This document shows, one piece after another, positions 52,261-59,765 of a DNA stretch of 64,000 bases. Position 1 is the first letter of the stretch, and each line of letters opens with the position of its first letter. A model generated the notes under the pieces. That model ran no database searches. It saw only the letters and a program-made list of their open reading frames with translations, and was not told where the DNA came from. Position numbers and translations under genes: made by a program. The stretch lies in assembly GCF_053078305.1 (NCBI RefSeq), contig NZ_CP166879.1; one strand, given 5' to 3'.

Positions 52261-53853
52261 TTATTTATTGGTGAGTACTACGTTCCATGGCAAGAGTTCA
52301 TCAACTCGGTTGGAAGGCCATTCCGGCAGTACGCTCAGGATATGGCGCAGATACGCTTCCGGATCGATACCGTTCAGACGGCAGGTGCCGATCAGCCCGT
52401 ACAACAGTGCTCCACGCTCGCCGCCGTGATCGCTGCCAAAGAACATAAAGTTTTTCTTTCCGAGACAGACTGCACGAAGCGCTCTTTCCGCAGCATTATT
52501 ATCCGCCTCCGCCAGACCGTCATCACTGTAATAACAGAGGGCATCCCACTGATTCAGTACATAGCTGAACGCTTCGCCCAGTCTGGATTTTTTCGACAGC
52601 GTACCATTCTTCTCCACCATCCATTCATGCAGCGACGTCAGTAACACTTTGCTTCGCTGCTGCCTGACGGAAAGACGCTCTGACTCCGGTAATCCCCGTA
52701 TTTCATCCTCGATGGCGTACAGTTCACTGATTCGCTTCAGGGCTTCTTCTGCCTTCGCACTTTTGCTGCTGATGTATACATCGTGGATTTTTCGCCGGGC
52801 ATGGGCCCAGCACGCAACTTCTGTCAGTGCACCACCTTCACGTTCTGCACTGAACAACCTGTCGTAACCTGTGAACGCATCCGCCTGCAGGATACCCCGG
52901 AAGGGGCGGAGGTGTTGCTCCGGGTGTTTCCCCTGCCGGTTCGGCGAGTACGCGAACCAGACCGCTGGAGGAGATGACGAACCCACATTGCGATCATCCC
53001 GGACATACGTCCAGATACGCCCTGTTTTCGCCTTTTTCTGACCCGGTGCCAGTACCTTTACCGGTGTGTCATCAGTGTGAACCTTGCGGGTGTTCATTAC
53101 ATAACGGTACAGGGCATCATTCACCGGTGTCATTAACTGGCAGCACGCGTCAACCCAGTTGGAGAGTAAGGCCCGGCTCAGTTCGACACCCTTGCGGGCA
53201 AAGATTTCACTCTGACGATACAGTGGCAGATGTTCGCAGTATTTTCCCGTTAACACGCGGGCAAGTAATCCGGGGCCCGCGATACCACGCTCTATCGGGC
53301 GGGACGGCGCCGGTGCTTCAACGATGCAGTCACATTTTGTACAGGCTTTTTTTACCCGTTCTGTGCGGATCACTTTCAGGGCGCTGCTCACCAGTTCCAG
53401 TTGTTCTGCACTGACTTCCCCCAGATAATCCAGCTCACCGCCACACTCCGGGCAACAGCTTTCTTCAGACTCCAGACGGTGTATTTCACGGGGAAGGTGT
53501 GCCGGTAACGGACGACGATGGCGCGACTGTCGCAACTGGCGGGGAACCTGTGGATCGTCTTCCCGCCCACTGTAACGATCGCTGTCCTGTTCGCGTTGTT
53601 TCAGCAGGGCCTCAGCCTGTTCAACTTCACGACGCAGTTTTTCAGAACGGGTACCGAACAGCATCCGGCGCAGTTTTTCTATCTGAGCCCGCAGATGTTC
53701 TATTTCCCGTTCATCTTCTTCGATCTTTTCTTCGGCACGTGCCAGTGCAGAGCGCAGGAAGGCCTCCGTCTCTTCAACCAGACTCAGTTGCTGGTCTTTC
53801 TGACGGAGCTGGCTTTCCAGTTCTGCAATGCGAATGAGGTATTTCTGACTCAT
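52261..53853 (-). CDS. IS66-family transposase (TnpC / Orf3)
   Basis: 530 aa; N-terminal coiled-coil/leucine zipper, zinc-finger-like CxxC pairs, DDE core. Confidence 0.9.
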   Translation of the reverse strand: MSQKYLIRIAELESQLRQKDQQLSLVEETEAFLRSALARAEEKIEEDEREIEHLRAQIEKLRRMLFGTRSEKLRREVEQAEALLKQREQDSDRYSGREDDPQVPRQLRQSRHRRPLPAHLPREIHRLESEESCCPECGGELDYLGEVSAEQLELVSSALKVIRTERVKKACTKCDCIVEAPAPSRPIERGIAGPGLLARVLTGKYCEHLPLYRQSEIFARKGVELSRALLSNWVDACCQLMTPVNDALYRYVMNTRKVHTDDTPVKVLAPGQKKAKTGRIWTYVRDDRNVGSSSPPAVWFAYSPNRQGKHPEQHLRPFRGILQADAFTGYDRLFSAEREGGALTEVACWAHARRKIHDVYISSKSAKAEEALKRISELYAIEDEIRGLPESERLSVRQQRSKVLLTSLHEWMVEKNGTLSKKSRLGEAFSYVLNQWDALCYYSDDGLAEADNNAAERALRAVCLGKKNFMFFGSDHGGERGALLYGLIGTCRLNGIDPEAYLRHILSVLPEWPSNRVDELLPWNVVLTNK

Positions 53854-53883
53854 GACCGTTTTTATAATGCGGTCAGGATTTTT

Positions 53884-54234
53884 TTACAACATTGTCAGTG
53901 AGTTACGGCGGGATGTTTTTGGCTGACGCCAGTCCAGCTTATCGAGGAGCATTGCCAGTTGCGAGCGGGTAATGGATACCTTGCCGTCACGTACCGCAGG
54001 CCAGATAAACTGGCCTTCCTCCAGGCGTTTAGTGAACAGGCACAGACCATCAGCATCAGCCCAAAGAATTTTAACGGTGTCACCCCGTCGGCCACGGAAG
54101 ATAAACAGGTGACCGGAGAAGGGATTATCATTCAGCACATGTTGTACCTGTTCTCCCAGTCCGTTGAAGGATTTACGCATATCGGTAACGCCGGCAACGA
54201 GCCAGATACGGGTACCTGATGGGAGTGAGATCAT
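53884..54234 (-). CDS. IS66 Orf2 (TnpB) accessory protein
   Basis: 116 aa; characteristic position and size; overlaps Orf1 by 4 bp. Confidence 0.85.
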   Translation of the reverse strand: MISLPSGTRIWLVAGVTDMRKSFNGLGEQVQHVLNDNPFSGHLFIFRGRRGDTVKILWADADGLCLFTKRLEEGQFIWPAVRDGKVSITRSQLAMLLDKLDWRQPKTSRRNSLTML

Positions 54235-54656
54235 CTTCCCCTCCCGGTCAGTTCACGGATCAACACCGTGAGCAGCTCTGGCGATGGATTTTCCAGCGTC
54301 ATGTTACCGTGACGGAATTCCACCTTGCAGGAGCTGGCACTGACTCTGGTCTGAGAGGTAGTGGATAAAGATGGCGCAATGGCCACCACAGGTTCTTTCT
54401 GCTCATCCGGCGTTATTTCTACAGGTAATAATTCAACGCCAGTGTCAGAAGAGGTCGTTACCGGAAGACGCCGCGAAACACGCCCTTCGTTCTGCCAGAG
54501 CCTGAGCCATTTGAACAGGAGGTTATCATTGATATCGTGTTCCCGGGCGATACGGGCAACAGAGGCTCCTGGTTGCAAAGCCAGTTTAACCATTTGAAGT
54601 TTAAAATTATTTGAAAATGATCTGCGGGGTTCTGCGGATAATGTTTTTTGCTCCAT
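54231..54656 (-). CDS. IS66 Orf1 (TnpA) accessory protein
   Basis: 141 aa; N-terminal HTH-like region (FKLQMVKLALQPGASVARIAREHDINDNLLFKW). Confidence 0.8.
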   Translation of the reverse strand: MEQKTLSAEPRRSFSNNFKLQMVKLALQPGASVARIAREHDINDNLLFKWLRLWQNEGRVSRRLPVTTSSDTGVELLPVEITPDEQKEPVVAIAPSLSTTSQTRVSASSCKVEFRHGNMTLENPSPELLTVLIRELTGRGR

Positions 54657-54748
54657 AACAGGCGTCCACTAGTTTGAAAAGGTGGGCACCTACGTTACCA
54701 ATACTGGCTTAATGGCTACATACGGCAGTCGGTTTACGCTTACCTTTG

Positions 54749-54993
54749 ATCAGCCAGAGCCTGAGCCATTTGAACAGAAGATTATCATTGATATCATGCT
54801 CCCGGGCAATACGGGCAACAAAAACCCTTGGTTGTAAAGCCAGTTTAACCATTTGAAGTTTAAACTCATTTGAAAATGACCTGCGGGGTTCTGCGGATAA
54901 TGTTTTTTGTTCCATAACAGGCATCCACTAGTTTGAAAAGGTGGGCACCTACGTTACCAATACTGGCTTAATGGCTACATACGACGGTCGGTT
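54749..54993 (-). mobile_element. partial tandem duplicate of the IS66 left end (with truncated orf1 copy at 54709-54924)
   Basis: About 245 bp roughly 95% identical to 54493-54748, including a second GTAAGCG-type terminal repeat at 54993. Confidence 0.7.
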
Positions 54994-55045
54994 TACGCTT
55001 ACCAGAAAACTAATAGTGCTATATGCAATTTTTAATATTCAGACT

Positions 55046-57727
55046 TTAGCCTGACAGGCCTGACAAAAACGCGCCCAACTTCCCTTCTATATCACTGTCT
55101 ATAGTACGTAATCTTAGCAATGGCAGACCACATTTCTTCAGTATACTGTTTTTAAGTTCATCACGTTCAGCCTGGACACTGGTCAGATGATAGCCTCCAT
55201 CCACTTCAATAACCCCTAATGGAGTCTTCCCGACCTTATAGTAAACAACAAAGTCACAACTGGCCCGATTACGCATGAATAACAGTTCACGGTGAGTAAA
55301 ATCTCCCCGCTCCAGCAACACCAACTGATTCAGCGCTATTTGTGAATGAAACATCATGCTCCGATAACTATCCTGCGACAGGATATCCCGCAACAGGCAG
55401 GCCACAATCTGTTCTGACTTAAAGCGTGAATCATCTGAATTCAATCTACTATTCAGTCGTTCCAGTGATTTGTCATACTCACTGTACAGCAAATCAAATG
55501 CTGATATCACCGGGCTCTCGAAAATCTCTCCGTCATCAGCGTAGTATCTGATGTAACGAATCAGTGCCGCAATATGTCCAGCGTGGCGTTCAAATACATC
55601 ATTACCAGTCACCAACGTAAATTTGTTTCGGGCCCTTGAAACAGCGACATTCACCAGTTCAGGATTATCAACAAACGCGATATTCCGACTTTGCTGGCTG
55701 CTGCGTTTCTTATCCAGCACAGTGGAAAACACAATTTCATCGCACTCCCGTCCCTGAAATTTATGCACCGTCGATTTCACAAAATCAGCGGGCAGCACTG
55801 TTTCAGCCAGATTAACCTGTGCATTATATGGGGCGATATATCCCCTGCTACTTTCCTCATCCCAGTAATGTCCTTCCAGAGATTCAAGCTCCCTGAGATT
55901 TGAAAAATTACGGGTATGGTTTCCTTTTGCCGTGATGATCAGAGATAATGAGGCTTCACCTGAATCAAGCGTTAGCGGTATCAGAGCATTATCATAAAAC
56001 TGCTTATTACAAAATTGAATGATTTTAGGATGACAGCGATAATGCTCTTTAAGAAGAGTTACTGGCACCATATTCCTGAACGACATACAAACCGAATCAA
56101 GTAGACTATATTTCTCACAATTATAGTATTCTGCCGGTGGAGATGGGCTGTTCGGGAGTAATACAGGAACATGTGGAAGTTGCTTTCGATCCCCTACAAC
56201 GATTACATTACGGGCACATCCTAGTCCCAGAATGCCCGGAACAATATCCTGCTGTGAGGCTTCATCAATAATCACATAATCAAGAAGAGCCCCCTTACCG
56301 ATAGAGTTAATAATAGAATGCGTGCTGCTACCAATAACCGGAAAACGCTTTATAAAACGGTTAAATTCATCCCTGTATGTCTCTGCCGAGAATGAATTTC
56401 TTGTTGAAATATTTCTTCGCAGATGTTGTTTTAAATAAAGCACAGACCATGATGTCAGGCGCTCCAGTAAAATTTTAAAATCAGATTCCTTTAATACTTT
56501 CTCATATTCATTCAAAGAAATTTGTTTTTCCCGGATGGATTTTTCATAATAAGAAAGCTGAAGAGAAGTAAATAGTGCCAGCCTTCTCTCCGGAATCACC
56601 AATGGTTTGACTTTCAGTATCCTGAAGTTTAACAACAAATCAATTCTGTTTCTGAATCCAATCCGCCTGTCAGAAAGGTAATGAATATAAGCCATCAGGT
56701 CAGTTGTTTTTCGTGAGGAAAGTCGGTATTTGTGAGAAAAAAGCTCCTCCGGTCGAAGATTCTGACTCTGCCATTGCTGCAGGTATTTATACTCAACACT
56801 CAGTTCATTAATTTCTGCTTTTAACGAAGCAACCTGGTTGATAGCATTCAGGTGTTTTTTCACTTGTTGAAGTACATCATCAATCATATTTGCAGACGGT
56901 GAGTCAGGTAAGACTTCCTCAGAACGCGAAATCGACGTTGAAAAAAACTGTTGTCTGTTCTCCGTACTTCCCAGTCGTGCCACCACATATCCCAGTCGTT
57001 GTTTGTCCATTTTTTCATAAACATTACTGACAGCTGAGTTATTATTGGACAAAATTGCCACTGTTTTATTCTGAATTAATATATTGGCAACAATATTGAG
57101 AATAGTCTGTGTTTTACCTGTCCCAGGTGGTCCTTCAATAACTGAAATCTGTGAGGAAAATGCCCGTTCAACCGCCATTAACTGACTCTCATTCAGGCCA
57201 AACGGAAAAATCAACCCCCATGGCGAATCACGTTTTTTACTCTGTCCTGAACAGTATGCATGCAAGGCGGTATCCGGATGAGGAACTATTTTCTTTATCT
57301 GTCTGAGGATATTCTCATCGATATTTTTATTATTACCTCGAGCATAAAAAACACGTTCGTCAGCCACCCTGCACAAGTAATTAAACACGGCATGCTCTGT
57401 AAATGCTGAACACTGTTGAAAGTCAAGTCCGGTCGTTTTCATGATGTAGGGTCGTTCGCTCTCACGGTAATAAACAGCAGCATATTTATCACCATAGATA
57501 ATAACCCGTTCAGCCCGGGATGTTACAGCGTTCCCTTTCCTTTCGAGGAAAACATTTCGCAAAATTACAGTTGGCGTTATCTGACATACAGAAAGCGGAC
57601 GAGTATATTTTTTCCCGCTGCGAAAATGACAGGTCAGCATAACCTCTCCGTCATCATTTCCAGCCCACAGAGTCCAGTCGGTAATTTTATGAGTCTTATT
57701 TTCACCGTCAACACAAATCGTGACCAT
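55046..57727 (-). CDS. SF1 (Upf1/DNA2-like) helicase with C-terminal DUF559/Vsr-like nuclease-fold domain; candidate single-gene defence protein
   Basis: 893 aa; Walker A GPPGTGKT; motif II VIIDEASQ; C-terminal DFVVYYK...GVIEVDGGYH...LPLLRLR resembles the DUF559/Vsr-like PD-(D/E)xK fold; about 190 aa N-terminal domain of unknown function. Confidence 0.7.
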   Translation of the reverse strand: MVTICVDGENKTHKITDWTLWAGNDDGEVMLTCHFRSGKKYTRPLSVCQITPTVILRNVFLERKGNAVTSRAERVIIYGDKYAAVYYRESERPYIMKTTGLDFQQCSAFTEHAVFNYLCRVADERVFYARGNNKNIDENILRQIKKIVPHPDTALHAYCSGQSKKRDSPWGLIFPFGLNESQLMAVERAFSSQISVIEGPPGTGKTQTILNIVANILIQNKTVAILSNNNSAVSNVYEKMDKQRLGYVVARLGSTENRQQFFSTSISRSEEVLPDSPSANMIDDVLQQVKKHLNAINQVASLKAEINELSVEYKYLQQWQSQNLRPEELFSHKYRLSSRKTTDLMAYIHYLSDRRIGFRNRIDLLLNFRILKVKPLVIPERRLALFTSLQLSYYEKSIREKQISLNEYEKVLKESDFKILLERLTSWSVLYLKQHLRRNISTRNSFSAETYRDEFNRFIKRFPVIGSSTHSIINSIGKGALLDYVIIDEASQQDIVPGILGLGCARNVIVVGDRKQLPHVPVLLPNSPSPPAEYYNCEKYSLLDSVCMSFRNMVPVTLLKEHYRCHPKIIQFCNKQFYDNALIPLTLDSGEASLSLIITAKGNHTRNFSNLRELESLEGHYWDEESSRGYIAPYNAQVNLAETVLPADFVKSTVHKFQGRECDEIVFSTVLDKKRSSQQSRNIAFVDNPELVNVAVSRARNKFTLVTGNDVFERHAGHIAALIRYIRYYADDGEIFESPVISAFDLLYSEYDKSLERLNSRLNSDDSRFKSEQIVACLLRDILSQDSYRSMMFHSQIALNQLVLLERGDFTHRELLFMRNRASCDFVVYYKVGKTPLGVIEVDGGYHLTSVQAERDELKNSILKKCGLPLLRLRTIDSDIEGKLGAFLSGLSG

Positions 57728-58235
57728 ATTCTCACTCAGTAATTATCATTTAACTTACGGAAAATTGTTATGAAACTCCCGATATTTACCCGGTAAAATA
57801 CTTGTCATTGTTTGAAGCCCTCCCTAAAAAATGACCAGGCATTTGATAACCCGGTGTATTTCTCCCGATATGAGCTCCGGAGGATTTTCCACAACTCCGG
57901 GTGTGTTAACATATTCCCGCCGGCCATATATACATTGAGTTCAGTCATAACAGTCAATACCAGGATTACAGGAACGCGATGCTGATACGCTGGTTATTGA
58001 ATACTGGTAGCCCCTAACTACTAATTCATCACGATACTCTGTACTTACTGTTTTTTACAACCATTCCCCCAGGTAAAAGAGTCCATTTATCATGCCCCTC
58101 TTTAACGCCTGCCAGCATAATTTAAGAATGGATACCGTGGGTGGAATTAACAATACCTGCTCAGGCCAATGCCATGTAACCGCCTCACTGAAAAAGCCAG
58201 ATCATCTAACCAGGTACAGACCAACATCGCAAAAA

Positions 58236-58385
58236 TTACCATGTAGCACGAACTGCTGTCATATTTCTGTTCAGGTATGCCGCTATTTCGCGGGTTTTCT
58301 TCACGCCATAATGCGTTTCAAGGTAGCGAACATCTTCGATTGTCCATGGTGTGCGCGCTCTTCCGGGGGTATTTTCCATTTCCAT
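58236..58385 (-). CDS. small ORF (49 aa) with Myb/SANT-like pattern; putative DNA-binding protein
   Basis: Not in the supplied ORF track (below 60 aa); starts 16 bp downstream of the ImpA-N gene stop; W-x(2)-E-D-x(2)-L-x(3)-YG...IAxxL.R...R..W spacing. Confidence 0.35.
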   Translation of the reverse strand: MEMENTPGRARTPWTIEDVRYLETHYGVKKTREIAAYLNRNMTAVRATW

Positions 58386-58400
58386 GTTTTATCTCAGCCA

Positions 58401-59765
58401 TTATGGCTGCCTCTCCTGATTGCCTGTGTGTTCCATCTGATAACGATTAATCAGCTGATTCAGTGCCATTTCAGCCTGTTTTTGCTGCTGTTCACTGCCA
58501 TTCTGATTACGGGCTTCATCATAGCGACGTAACTGCTCTTCTGCCGGGATATGCCGGTTAAAAGCCTGCATGATGCCAAACACCTCCGTTTTCAGTTCAC
58601 TGACCGTCATGTATTTTCCCCGCTGTTCATCCAGACGGTTCAGGCGCTCAGCCAGCTGCTGTAAGCGGGTCATGCCTTCGTTCCAGCCCGTCATCGCCTC
58701 TTCCGGAAGCGCTCGGCTCCTTACGCTCTTCTGCCAGTTATCCACCATTTCCTGAACACGGGGATTGTCGGGGAAAAGTCCCCTCAGTTGCTGCAGCAGC
58801 TGCGCACTGCGTTGCAGGTTGTATGCCGGCGGTAGTTCTGTCAGTCGCGTTATCTGCTGACCGGAAAGGGTTATCCACTCTGACGCATGATTTAACAGTG
58901 AGGGTGTTCTGCTGAGTTGCGCCATCTGGTCTGCTGAAAGCACATCCGGTAGTGGTGCCAGCAGCGCCCTGAGTTGCTGCTCCGCCGATGATGGCTGTGT
59001 CAGAAACTGCCATCCCGGAATGACCACGCTGACAGTCAGCAATGCCGCACAGACACCAGCCACAAACGGTTTCAGAAACGTGGGCGGGGATTTCTGAAGG
59101 GAGGGTGTGGGTTCTGCTTTTGTTTCAGAAACAACATACACCAGACGGGAGTACGGCAGGGGCTGATGTTCCTGTACATCCGGAGCATCAGACCGGAGTG
59201 CCTGAGCCGGAAGGGTTACCGGCGACGATACTTCACCCTGCACAGGCTGATTCTCCAGACGGGTGATATATCCCTTCACCATGGCTTCCGGTAAAGCCAC
59301 TTTACTGCTCTGTTTAAGTTCATGCCGGGCCAGTATGTCACTCAGCGTTTTCAGGCATGTTTCTGTCTGATACAGCAGGGGCAGATTGTCACGCTCATCC
59401 GGTGGCATGGCCCGGAGCGTTTTTTGCAGACGACTGAACAGACCGGTAATAATTTCCAGCCGGGCGTGGGTATTCAGCGGCCACATCACTGACCAGTGAT
59501 GCCGGGTCAGCGCCACAATCAGAGCCAGCCCTTCATTCAGACCACTTAACCCTGCTGTATGCATCCGGGCGATGGTGTACCAGGATACCGTCTGTAATTC
59601 CACGCCATTGTGTTCATACAGACGCAGGCAGAGCGTCTCCACATAACGCCAGTCCACATCCGGACGTGCCGGGTGAGTCAGCTTGCTGATTTCATCGCGC
59701 AGGGCAGCATAATCCGGTAATGACCGGGGGTCATTACCTGTTTTCAGTTTTACTTCAGAAGTCAT
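58401..59765 (-). CDS. T6SS-associated ImpA-N domain protein (VasL/TagA-like)
   Basis: 454 aa; N-terminal ImpA_N-like region (GNDPRSLPDYAALRDEISKL), central TM segment; adjacent to T6SS core genes. Confidence 0.7.
   Translation of the reverse strand: MTSEVKLKTGNDPRSLPDYAALRDEISKLTHPARPDVDWRYVETLCLRLYEHNGVELQTVSWYTIARMHTAGLSGLNEGLALIVALTRHHWSVMWPLNTHARLEIITGLFSRLQKTLRAMPPDERDNLPLLYQTETCLKTLSDILARHELKQSSKVALPEAMVKGYITRLENQPVQGEVSSPVTLPAQALRSDAPDVQEHQPLPYSRLVYVVSETKAEPTPSLQKSPPTFLKPFVAGVCAALLTVSVVIPGWQFLTQPSSAEQQLRALLAPLPDVLSADQMAQLSRTPSLLNHASEWITLSGQQITRLTELPPAYNLQRSAQLLQQLRGLFPDNPRVQEMVDNWQKSVRSRALPEEAMTGWNEGMTRLQQLAERLNRLDEQRGKYMTVSELKTEVFGIMQAFNRHIPAEEQLRRYDEARNQNGSEQQQKQAEMALNQLINRYQMEHTGNQERQP

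What the first reader, a model, noticed from the sequence alone, without database searches (positions are those of the whole stretch)
55046..57727. Orphan SF1 helicase fused to a Vsr/DUF559-like nuclease domain: candidate single-gene phage defence
This 893 aa protein joins an uncharacterised N-terminal domain of about 190 aa, a Upf1/DNA2-like SF1 helicase core (GPPGTGKT, DEASQ) and a C-terminal segment with the DUF559/Vsr-like pattern (VIEVDGGYH ... LRLR). It sits alone between an IS66 element and a T6SS cluster, with no metabolic context. Helicase plus PD-(D/E)xK nuclease fusions are a recurring architecture in anti-phage systems (Hhe/Nhi-like single-gene systems), but this domain order and size do not match any system I can name with certainty.
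Basis: partly seen in the sequence, partly recalled or inferred. Interest (0 to 1): 0.72.

Follow-up and report, generated by a model that had tools for sequence, protein, structure and literature searches.

The report
Unnamed stand-alone helicase–nuclease, probable phage defence
This E. coli gene encodes one large protein joining an RNA/DNA-unwinding motor to a DNA-cutting domain; it belongs to a widespread, unnamed, horizontally moving family that often sits beside known anti-phage genes, so it is a credible but untested single-gene immunity candidate.

Summary

The protein has three parts:
- a family-specific N-terminal module (aa 1-177): two small beta-barrels plus helices, with no convincing fold match;
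- a Upf1/IGHMBP2/DNA2-like SF1 helicase core (aa 178-710);
- a C-terminal PD-(D/E)xK nuclease, which Pfam calls DUF2726 (aa ~765-880).

All three parts, and the catalytic residues of both enzymes, are conserved in homologues down to about 30% identity.

No known family claims the protein. PADLOC matches only the helicase core (MkoA, MkoC, PDC-S37, Hhe). Every NCBIfam score is far below its cut-off.

The gene is accessory, present in 647 of 5,426 complete E. coli genomes. Its GC content is lower than its flanks. It lies in mosaic, IS-rich islands and has no conserved partner gene across 80 species.

In 30 loci, 9 of 60 adjacent large ORFs were well-supported defence genes, against 0 of 20 distal ORFs.

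Verdict: a credible but experimentally untested single-gene defence candidate, and a new variant of the helicase–nuclease kind (Mokosh II, Hhe, CoCoNuT III-B CnuH). Interest is moderate.

The parts
55046..57727 (-). Complete gene for the 893-aa helicase-nuclease (stop codon at 55046-55048).
   Evidence: ORF list and translation. It is 99.8% identical to the RefSeq 'AAA domain-containing protein' WP_166513294 in E. coli 04-00955.
57197..57727 (-). N-terminal module, aa 1-177: two five-stranded small beta-barrels (about aa 4-50 and 54-105) followed by three helices (113-160). It is specific to this family.
55598..57196 (-). Upf1-like SF1B helicase core, aa 178-710. It carries Walker A GPPGTGKT (57110-57133), motif II DEASQ (56252-56266), VGDRKQLP at aa 511-518, HKFQGRE at 655-661 and VAVSRAR at 694-700.
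   Evidence: Pfam AAA_11/AAA_12. PDB sequence hits to IGHMBP2, Upf1, DNA2 and Sen1. PADLOC MkoA 145.8 bits and MkoC 140.1 bits over the core. The motifs are invariant in 39 sequences down to 29% identity.
56318..56950 (-). Insertion of about 210 residues (aa ~260-470) in the first RecA domain, between Walker A and motif II. By position it is equivalent to the 1C/'prong' of Upf1-like helicases or to the helical insertion of CnuH.
   Evidence: The AAA_11 model's 251 positions are spread over 341 residues. This region is less conserved than the motor, with mean column identity 0.59-0.64. Its helical or coiled-coil nature is inferred from the sequence and from the CoCoNuT paper's description. It was not modelled here.
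55049..55597 (-). C-terminal region, aa 711-893: a conserved linker plus the DUF2726 PD-(D/E)xK nuclease core (aa ~765-880, window 55088-55435). Invariant residues are D825, E841, D843, H847, D856 and K859.
   Evidence: Pfam DUF2726 6e-12. The AF2 model (pLDDT 78) shows an alpha-beta-beta-beta-alpha-beta core. Foldseek against PDB finds BstEII (8e-4), TnsA, I-Bth0305I and a REase-like protein.
57728..58078 (-). Upstream non-coding DNA that travels with the gene between different E. coli contexts. The last ~60 nt are conserved across Enterobacterales and contain a sigma-70-like match (57771-57742: ATAACA-18-GATAAT).
   Evidence: The match boundaries of different E. coli contexts share window ~55024-58078. 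The alignment of upstream regions from E. coli, Pantoea, Salmonella and Serratia is.

Best explanation
The gene encodes a self-contained, horizontally mobile helicase-nuclease of a so-far unnamed family. It most likely acts as a single-protein innate immune effector against phages or other invading genetic elements.

Proposed mechanism:
1. The N-terminal tandem small-beta-barrel module and the Upf1-like SF1B motor engage single-stranded nucleic acid exposed by an invader. This could be ssDNA replication or recombination intermediates, transcripts, or RNA:DNA hybrids.
2. ATP hydrolysis drives 5'->3' translocation.
3. That movement delivers or licenses the C-terminal DUF2726 PD-(D/E)xK nuclease to cut the nucleic acid, either stopping the invader or killing the infected cell.

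Shown here: the three-module architecture; strict conservation of the ATPase and nuclease catalytic residues; co-inheritance of all three modules; single-gene status; accessory and mobile distribution; and frequent adjacency to known defence genes.

Inferred: the defence function itself, the substrate (DNA or RNA), the translocation polarity, and how self is spared.
For: - **Architecture and active sites.** Pfam and PDB matches are. The invariant residues in 39 sequences down to 29% identity are Walker A, DEASQ, motifs III to VI, and nuclease residues D825, E841, D843, H847, D856 and K859.
- **The three modules always occur together.**
- **Closest profile matches are defence helicases.** MkoA 4e-43, MkoC 2e-41, PDC-S37 and Hhe. 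No housekeeping family reaches its cut-off.
- **Accessory and mobile.** The gene is in 647 of 5,426 complete E. coli genomes. It occupies different IS-rich island contexts. GC is 0.40-0.44 against 0.50-0.55 in the flanks. At least 572 species genomes carry a relative.
- **Single gene.** No recurrent neighbour family appears in 80 loci. The top clusters are LysR paralogues and guaA/guaB. Searches agree.
- **Guilt by association.** I took the largest ORF within 3 kb on each side in 30 loci. Nine of 60 were strong or near-full-length defence hits: PD-Lambda-4_A, SoFic, type II REase, HamB, SIR2-pAgo, type II MTase, type IV REase, a PDC-S37-like helicase and NsnB. One more was a partial HsdR. Of 20 ORFs chosen by the same rule at 6.5 kb or more away, none was a strong hit. 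One-sided Fisher p is 0.046-0.064; binomial p against a 2% background is 3e-6.
- **Validated analogues need both activities.** Mokosh requires both the helicase ATP site and the nuclease site (Millman et al. preprint).
Against: - There is no experimental evidence for this family in the searched literature.
- The window's own neighbours are an IS66 element and T6SS genes, not defence genes.
- The usual E. coli context is a pathogenicity-type island next to ibrAB/perC, not a classic defence island.
- The neighbour test is small. The within-locus control is only borderline significant, and the 2% background is my assumption.
- The O157:H7 lineage carries a frameshifted copy, so the gene is dispensable there.
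- The family is nearly absent from phages and from true plasmids, whereas many defence genes ride on such elements.
Confidence: 0.6

Rival explanations
1. The protein is defensive, but it is an RNA-surveillance or abortive-infection effector rather than a DNA-restricting one. The Upf1-like motor would track phage transcripts or RNA:DNA hybrids. The nuclease would then cleave RNA or the transcribed DNA, shutting down the infected cell. This is the mode proposed for Mokosh and for CoCoNuT CnuH systems.
For: - The core is closest to the RNA helicases IGHMBP2, Upf1 and Sen1 and to Mokosh MkoA/MkoC. [quoted passage not shown]
- The N-terminal barrels weakly resemble Sm/Hfq, KOW and Tudor-type small barrels.
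- The CoCoNuT authors argue for RNA targeting by Upf1-like CnuH, including a Vsr-fused form.
Against: - PD-(D/E)xK nucleases of the Vsr/DUF559/DUF2726 group are, as far as characterised, DNA enzymes (Steczkiewicz et al. 2012). The best fold matches, BstEII, TnsA and I-Bth0305I, all act on DNA.
- Upf1-like helicases such as DNA2 and IGHMBP2 also act on ssDNA.
Confidence: 0.18
2. The protein is not immunity. It is a DNA-repair, recombination or island-maintenance helicase-nuclease (DNA2/AddAB-like end processing), carried as cargo of genomic islands and serving the island or the host chromosome.
For: - DNA2 has the same helicase family plus a PD-(D/E)xK nuclease.
- In E. coli the gene sits in pathogenicity-type mosaic islands among IS remnants and virulence genes rather than among defence genes.
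- It is rare on phages and plasmids.
Against: - The gene is present in only 12% of E. coli genomes and is frameshifted in O157:H7, unlike a core repair function.
- The domain order (nuclease at the C-terminus, a dedicated N-terminal module) differs from DNA2.
- No integrase, replication or transfer gene is consistently adjacent.
- Adjacent defence genes are over-represented.
Confidence: 0.12
3. The gene belongs functionally to the neighbouring type VI secretion system, for example as an effector, an immunity-related factor or an accessory factor.
For: - In the window and its closest relatives the gene directly follows the ImpA_N/VasL gene at the end of a T6SS cluster.
- A 78%-identical Pantoea dispersa homologue also follows an ImpA_N/VasL gene.
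- A Pseudomonas homologue lies a few kb from an Hcp gene and an RNase-toxin gene.
Against: - Most E. coli copies (the STEC lineages) and nearly all homologues in other species have no T6SS neighbour.
- Pfam detected no PAAR, VgrG, Rhs or MIX-type delivery domain.
- The VasL proteins are only 45% identical while the helicases are 78% identical, so the two genes do not share a history.
- GC content differs sharply from the T6SS genes.
Confidence: 0.03
4. The copy in this strain is inert cargo: an intact-looking but unexpressed or decaying remnant with no current function.
For: - The gene is surrounded by IS66 insertions and fragmented neighbours.
- The O157:H7 lineage has a 1-nt deletion, and other strains carry IS3 insertions or truncations.
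Against: - The window copy is full-length with all catalytic residues.
- The E. coli alleles are 95-99.8% identical and mostly intact.
- About 350 bp of upstream sequence, including a conserved proximal ~60 nt, travels with the gene.
Confidence: 0.07

Closest known systems
Mokosh type II (MkoC; Millman et al. 2022)
   Same: A single polypeptide combining a Upf1-like (COG1112, AAA_11/AAA_12) helicase with a C-terminal nuclease. Among PADLOC defence models, MkoA (145.8 bits) and MkoC (140.1 bits) are the best matches. In Mokosh both the ATPase and the nuclease sites are required for defence.
   Different: The Mokosh nuclease is of the phospholipase-D family. Here it is a DUF2726 PD-(D/E)xK domain, and Pfam finds no PLD domain. 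The matches cover the helicase core only (for example MkoA model positions 616-1099 of 1112). The N-terminal beta-barrel module is specific to this family.
Hhe (HheA; the 'DUF4011 domain-containing anti-phage protein Hhe' of NCBIfam NF042953; from my own knowledge, described by Gao et al. 2020 as a helicase plus Vsr-like endonuclease)
   Same: A single-gene system with the same order of an SF1 AAA_11/AAA_12 helicase followed by a Vsr-superfamily nuclease. Weak Pfam REase_MTES_1575 signal falls on the same C-terminal residues.
   Different: Hhe models are 1,797-1,911 positions long, twice the size of this protein. The scores are 74.8 bits against a cut-off of 2,000 and 58 bits in PADLOC, over helicase motifs only. 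There is no DUF4011.
CoCoNuT type III-B CnuH (Bell et al., eLife 2024, PMC11090510); a prediction only
   Same: A Upf1-like SF1 helicase with an OB/beta-barrel plus stalk N-terminal of the motor, a large helical insertion after Walker A, and a Vsr-like PD-(D/E)xK nuclease fused directly to the helicase C-terminus. This is the nearest architectural description in the literature.
   Different: CnuH works within an operon encoding McrB-like (CnuB), McrC-like (CnuC), CnuD and CnuA proteins. The present family has no conserved neighbours at all. CnuH III-B has an N-terminal wHTH (Sul7s-like) domain, not tandem barrels. Sequence-level relatedness could not be tested because the supplement holding the sequences was truncated.
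Eukaryotic Upf1-like helicases (IGHMBP2/SMUBP-2, Upf1, Sen1, DNA2)
   Same: These are the best solved-structure sequence matches. They share the SF1B motif set. In IGHMBP2 the region N-terminal of the motor has a similar length (query residue 174 aligns with IGHMBP2 residue 186).

Membership tests
Upf1-like (DNA2/NAM7) SF1B helicase superfamily | AAA_11 and AAA_12 RecA domains with Walker A, DEAxQ motif II, and motifs III, V and VI | tested here: met
   Pfam AAA_11 2.7e-21 and AAA_12 1.3e-13. PDB matches to IGHMBP2, Upf1, DNA2 and Sen1. The motifs are invariant across 39 homologues.
Upf1-like (DNA2/NAM7) SF1B helicase superfamily | 1B beta-barrel and helical stalk N-terminal of or inserted in RecA1 | tested here: inconclusive
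PD-(D/E)xK nucleases, Pfam DUF2726 (Vsr/DUF559/DUF2726 group) | Match to the DUF2726 profile, a restriction-endonuclease-like fold, and conserved acidic catalytic residues | tested here: met
   DUF2726 6e-12 at 813-879. Foldseek hits to BstEII (8e-4), TnsA and I-Bth0305I. D825, E841, D843, H847, D856 and K859 are invariant.
PD-(D/E)xK nucleases, Pfam DUF2726 (Vsr/DUF559/DUF2726 group) | Direct detectable homology to E. coli Vsr itself | tested here: not met
   hhalign of the C-terminal alignment against the Vsr sequence (verified as PDB 1cw0) gave probability 0.3%. A profile search of PDB sequences found nothing.
Mokosh type II (MkoC) | Upf1-like COG1112 helicase domain | tested here: met
   PADLOC MkoC 2e-41 and MkoA 4.3e-43 over the core.
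Mokosh type II (MkoC) | C-terminal phospholipase-D family nuclease | tested here: not met
   No PLD domain appears in the Pfam scan; the C-terminus is DUF2726. The best MkoC stretch ends at residue 718, before the nuclease.
Hhe (NF042953 / PADLOC PDLC02194) | Full-length match above the curated cut-off, including DUF4011 | tested here: not met
   74.8 bits against a cut-off of 2,000. PADLOC gives 58 bits, with the best stretch at model positions 428-508 of 1911. The protein is half the model length.
Nhi (nuclease-helicase immunity) | Match to the PADLOC Nhi model | tested here: not met
   Nhi is absent from the 22 PADLOC families with E <= 0.01.
CoCoNuT type III-B | Upf1-like helicase fused to a Vsr-like nuclease (CnuH) | tested here: met
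   The same domain order and the insertion after Walker A are present. This is architectural resemblance only.
CoCoNuT type III-B | Conserved operon with McrB-like CnuB, McrC-like CnuC, CnuD and CnuA | tested here: not met
   The window's flanks are an IS66 element and T6SS genes. No recurrent neighbour family appears in 80 loci.
CoCoNuT type III-B | Sequence-level orthology to published CnuH III-B proteins | not testable with these tools
   The supplementary sheet holding the sequences was truncated in the held copy.
Housekeeping helicases (RecD, RecD2, IGHMBP2-family equivalogs) | NCBIfam score above the curated cut-off | tested here: not met
   IGHMBP2 family 144 against 349; RecD2 45.5 against 500; RecD 33.6 against 310. 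The gene is present in only 12% of E. coli genomes.

The most novel reading that the evidence does not exclude
This would be the founding member of an unrecognised, cross-phylum, single-protein immune system. A family-specific tandem beta-barrel sensor would couple a Upf1-like motor to a DUF2726 nuclease. It would work by surveying RNA or RNA:DNA hybrids of invaders, making it a minimal bacterial counterpart of eukaryotic Upf1-type RNA surveillance, with no partner proteins.
Probability: 0.15. Interest if true: 0.8.

Novelty: new variant of a known kind. Interest (0 to 1): 0.52.

Why it matters
If the family is confirmed as defensive, that would add a compact (about 2.7 kb), partner-free helicase–nuclease system to the known repertoire. 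It is common in pathogenic E. coli (O157, O26, O111, O145, O121, O104:H4) and present in at least 572 sampled species.

It would also show that the Upf1-like motor has been paired with at least three unrelated nuclease folds in prokaryotic immunity: PLD in Mokosh, HEPN in CoCoNuT, and PD-(D/E)xK here and in Hhe.

The natural O157:H7 allele splits the N-terminal module from the rest. That gives a ready-made test of what the module does.

Current annotation tools (PADLOC 2.0, NCBIfam 20) do not flag the gene, so defence-system censuses would miss it.

Tried and rejected
- **Named defence systems.** PADLOC and NCBIfam gave helicase-core hits only, far below cut-offs. PHROGs gave only generic helicase families.
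- **Vsr homology.** hhalign against verified E. coli Vsr and a profile search of PDB sequences were both negative.
- **Partner gene.** Clustering the flanking ORFs of 80 loci found none. The ImpA_N/VasL neighbour shared with Pantoea is only 45% identical and absent elsewhere, so I rejected it as a partner.
- **Defined E. coli hotspot.** I followed the PTS-side flank into other genomes. The result was mosaic, IS-ridden and inconsistent, so no hotspot could be defined.
- **Phage or plasmid carriage.** The family is essentially absent from the phage collection. On plasmids it appears mostly on chromids and megaplasmids.
- **Non-coding RNA near the gene.** Only sub-threshold AfaR-like hits appeared, inside IS66-related DNA.
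- **Diverged paralogues in E. coli.** None was found at blastn sensitivity.
- **Literature.** No paper links DUF2726 helicases to defence. The protein is not among the DefensePredictor hits. The CoCoNuT supplement was truncated.
- **Source names.** Every source name in the clusters is generic: AAA domain, DUF2726, or DNA2/NAM7 helicase.
Full report
**1. The observation**

The ORF at 55046-57727 on the minus strand is real: 893 aa with an ATG start.

The window is Escherichia coli chromosome. The closest complete genome, strain 04-00955, is 99.7-99.8% identical over the region and annotates the product only as 'AAA domain-containing protein'.

The flanks are as described:
- Downstream lie a complete IS66 (52261-54656) and a short older IS66 TnpA remnant (54709-54924).
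- Upstream lie an ImpA_N/VasL-type T6SS gene (58401-59765), then tssE, tssJ, tssG and tssF.

GC content is 0.40-0.44 over the gene and 0.50-0.55 on either side.

**2. Anatomy**

Pfam finds AAA_11 (178-518), AAA_12 (542-707) and DUF2726 (813-879, E = 6e-12), and nothing in residues 1-177. The best solved-structure relatives by sequence are IGHMBP2, Upf1/Nam7, DNA2 and Sen1, which make up the Upf1-like SF1B clade.

I modelled the N-terminal 182 residues from 28 homologues (pLDDT 84.7). They form two five-stranded small beta-barrels followed by three helices.
- Foldseek against AFDB50 returned only proteins or fragments of the same ~900-aa helicase/DUF2726 type, from Proteobacteria, Bacillus, Enterococcus, Bacteroides, Spirochaetes and Nocardia.
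- A profile of this module against 1.84 billion representatives found 98 proteins. Of the 19 that are 700 aa or longer, 18 keep Walker A and 17 match the C-terminal profile; the exceptions are two weak matches, a 732-aa protein and P0209.

The C-terminal 182 residues (pLDDT 78) fold as an alpha-beta-beta-beta-alpha-beta core. Its best PDB matches are BstEII, TnsA and the Vsr-like homing endonuclease I-Bth0305I.

In an alignment of 39 full-length homologues down to 29% identity, the helicase motifs and nuclease residues D825, E841, D843, H847, D856 and K859 are invariant. Both enzymatic activities are therefore under selection.

A direct profile comparison with E. coli Vsr was negative. 'Vsr-like' is thus a superfamily-level label, as in Steczkiewicz et al. 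2012. The formal family is DUF2726.

**3. Distribution and context**

Full-length homologues of 888-911 aa at 56-82% identity occur throughout gamma-, beta- and alpha-proteobacteria.

In E. coli the gene is present in 647 of 5,426 complete genomes, always at 95% DNA identity or more, with no diverged paralogue.

It occupies different places:
- next to the T6SS in the window and a few relatives;
- in an integrative island next to a POTRA remnant;
- in STEC lineages (O157:H7, O26-like, O111, O145, O121, O104:H4), next to the ibrA/ibrB/perC module.

The DNA shared between these contexts is the gene plus about 350 bp upstream. The last ~60 nt before the ATG are conserved across Enterobacterales.

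I clustered all flanking ORFs from 80 loci of different species and found no recurrent neighbour. The largest clusters are LysR paralogues (15 loci, variable distance and strand) and guaA/guaB (8 loci). Three individually inspected loci agree. The gene is a true single-gene cassette.

It is nearly absent from phage genomes and rare on plasmids, where it appears mostly on chromids.

**4. Does a known family claim it?**

No.
- PADLOC's best hits are MkoA (145.8 bits), MkoC (140.1), PDC-S37 (121.6) and Hhe (58). Their best aligned stretches lie within residues 152-728, before the nuclease core, and the MkoA, PDC-S37 and Hhe models are 1,112-1,911 positions long.
- NCBIfam's best hits are an IGHMBP2-family model (144 against a cut-off of 349), ProA (111 against 1,500) and Hhe (75 against 2,000).
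- Nhi does not hit.
- Every source name in the protein clusters is generic.
- I found no paper connecting DUF2726-bearing helicases with defence. The protein is not in the DefensePredictor tables.

**5. Indirect evidence for defence**

For 30 of the 80 loci I took the largest ORF within 3 kb on each side and scanned these against PADLOC. Nine of the 60 ORFs were strong, mostly full-length matches to defence proteins:
- PD-Lambda-4_A (1,014 bits)
- SoFic (411)
- a type II restriction enzyme (563)
- HamB of Hachiman (1,120)
- SIR2-pAgo (1,204)
- a type II methyltransferase (238)
- a type IV restriction enzyme (288)
- a PDC-S37/Hhe-like helicase (206)
- NsnB (267)

There was also one partial HsdR-like hit.

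As a control I chose ORFs by the same rule at 6.5 kb or more from the gene, in the same loci. None of these 20 was a strong hit. Two partial ABC-ATPase matches did not count.

One-sided Fisher p is 0.046-0.064. Against an assumed 2% per-gene background the binomial p is 3e-6. The sample is small and the background figure is my assumption, so this evidence is supportive, not conclusive.

The window's own neighbourhood contains no defence gene.

**6. Mechanism**

The best-supported reading is a partner-free helicase–nuclease immune effector, by analogy with Mokosh type II. There, a Upf1-like helicase and a C-terminal nuclease are both required for protection.

The motor would load on single-stranded nucleic acid produced by an invader. 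The barrels would probably help to bind it. Translocation would bring the DUF2726 nuclease to its substrate.

Whether the target is DNA or RNA is open. The nuclease fold relatives favour DNA. The helicase relatives, and the arguments made for Mokosh and for CoCoNuT CnuH, favour RNA or RNA:DNA hybrids.

The nearest published architectural description is the predicted CnuH of type III-B CoCoNuTs: a Upf1-like helicase with a barrel and stalk, a helical insertion after Walker A, and a fused Vsr-like nuclease. That protein works in an McrBC-type operon, which is absent here.

The rivals are a repair or island-maintenance enzyme, a T6SS accessory protein, and inert cargo. Each is less consistent with the accessory distribution, the lack of conserved neighbours, the conserved active sites and the defence-gene adjacency.

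**7. Verdict**

The gene is a credible but untested single-gene defence candidate from an unnamed family.

Its kind, a helicase fused to a nuclease, is already familiar. It is best rated as a new variant of a known kind, of moderate interest.

Noticed in passing
L008:10001-12681 (E. coli O157:H7 H2495); corresponds to window 55046-57727: The O157:H7 allele has a 1-nt deletion at nucleotide 490 of the gene. It splits the gene into a 171-aa ORF (the N-terminal barrel module) and a 722-aa ORF (helicase plus nuclease) that overlap by 4 nt. The split falls at the domain boundary, so it could be a pseudogene or a working two-protein version. Fourteen of 40 sampled E. coli records show this split annotation.
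   Followed up: partly
window 54620-55093: The complete IS66 (52261-54656) sits next to an older 71-aa IS66 TnpA remnant (54709-54924). The same terminator-like hairpin occurs twice (54620-54639 and 54881-54896). Two sub-threshold Rfam AfaR sRNA matches (35.8 and 29.3 bits against a gathering score of 100) fall at 54664-54753 and 54898-55093. These are probably IS66-end-derived sequence, not an sRNA gene.
   Followed up: no
L090:7021-12682 (Pantoea dispersa metagenome scaffold): A 78%-identical homologue also lies directly downstream of an ImpA_N/VasL gene (45% identical to window 58401-59765), and that gene follows a T5orf172/MUG113 gene. No other T6SS gene lies within 10 kb. The repeated VasL adjacency in two genera is unexplained. 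It may be a shared ancestral position or a preferred insertion point.
   Followed up: partly
window 58401-59765: In the window the ImpA_N/VasL-type gene is one uninterrupted 454-aa ORF. RefSeq annotation of the nearest genomes (04-00955 and strain 1105) marks this gene as several pseudogene fragments. I did not compare the sequences directly.
   Followed up: no
L002, L008, L009 (E. coli strain 1105, O157:H7, 2013C-3513): In most STEC-type contexts the gene lies about 500 bp from an ibrA (PAPS reductase-like) / ibrB (ParB-like) / perC-family module. That pair has itself been discussed as a conflict system (from my own knowledge). The association is not seen outside E. coli.
   Followed up: no
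L094:8654-12667 (Salmonella enterica Newport): The 82%-identical Salmonella homologue is preceded, 78 nt upstream on the same strand, by a 422-aa LAGLIDADG_3 protein. A NERD-UvrD helicase gene lies 6 kb away. The locus adjoins the same aryl-polyene (ApeP/MMPL/LolA) cluster that flanks the E. coli locus in strain 04-00955.
   Followed up: no
L072:6801-20073 (Neobacillus sp. PS3-12): A distant family member is flanked by a type IV methyl-directed restriction enzyme and by a second, 1,624-aa Upf1-like helicase that matches PDC-S37, Hhe and MkoC. Two different Upf1-like helicase proteins therefore sit in one apparent defence island.
   Followed up: no
window 58236-58385 (minus strand): A 49-aa ORF between the VasL gene and the helicase upstream region is annotated as a hypothetical protein in RefSeq (WP_157911220). 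It has no NCBIfam match. It lies outside the ~350 bp that travels with the helicase gene.
   Followed up: no
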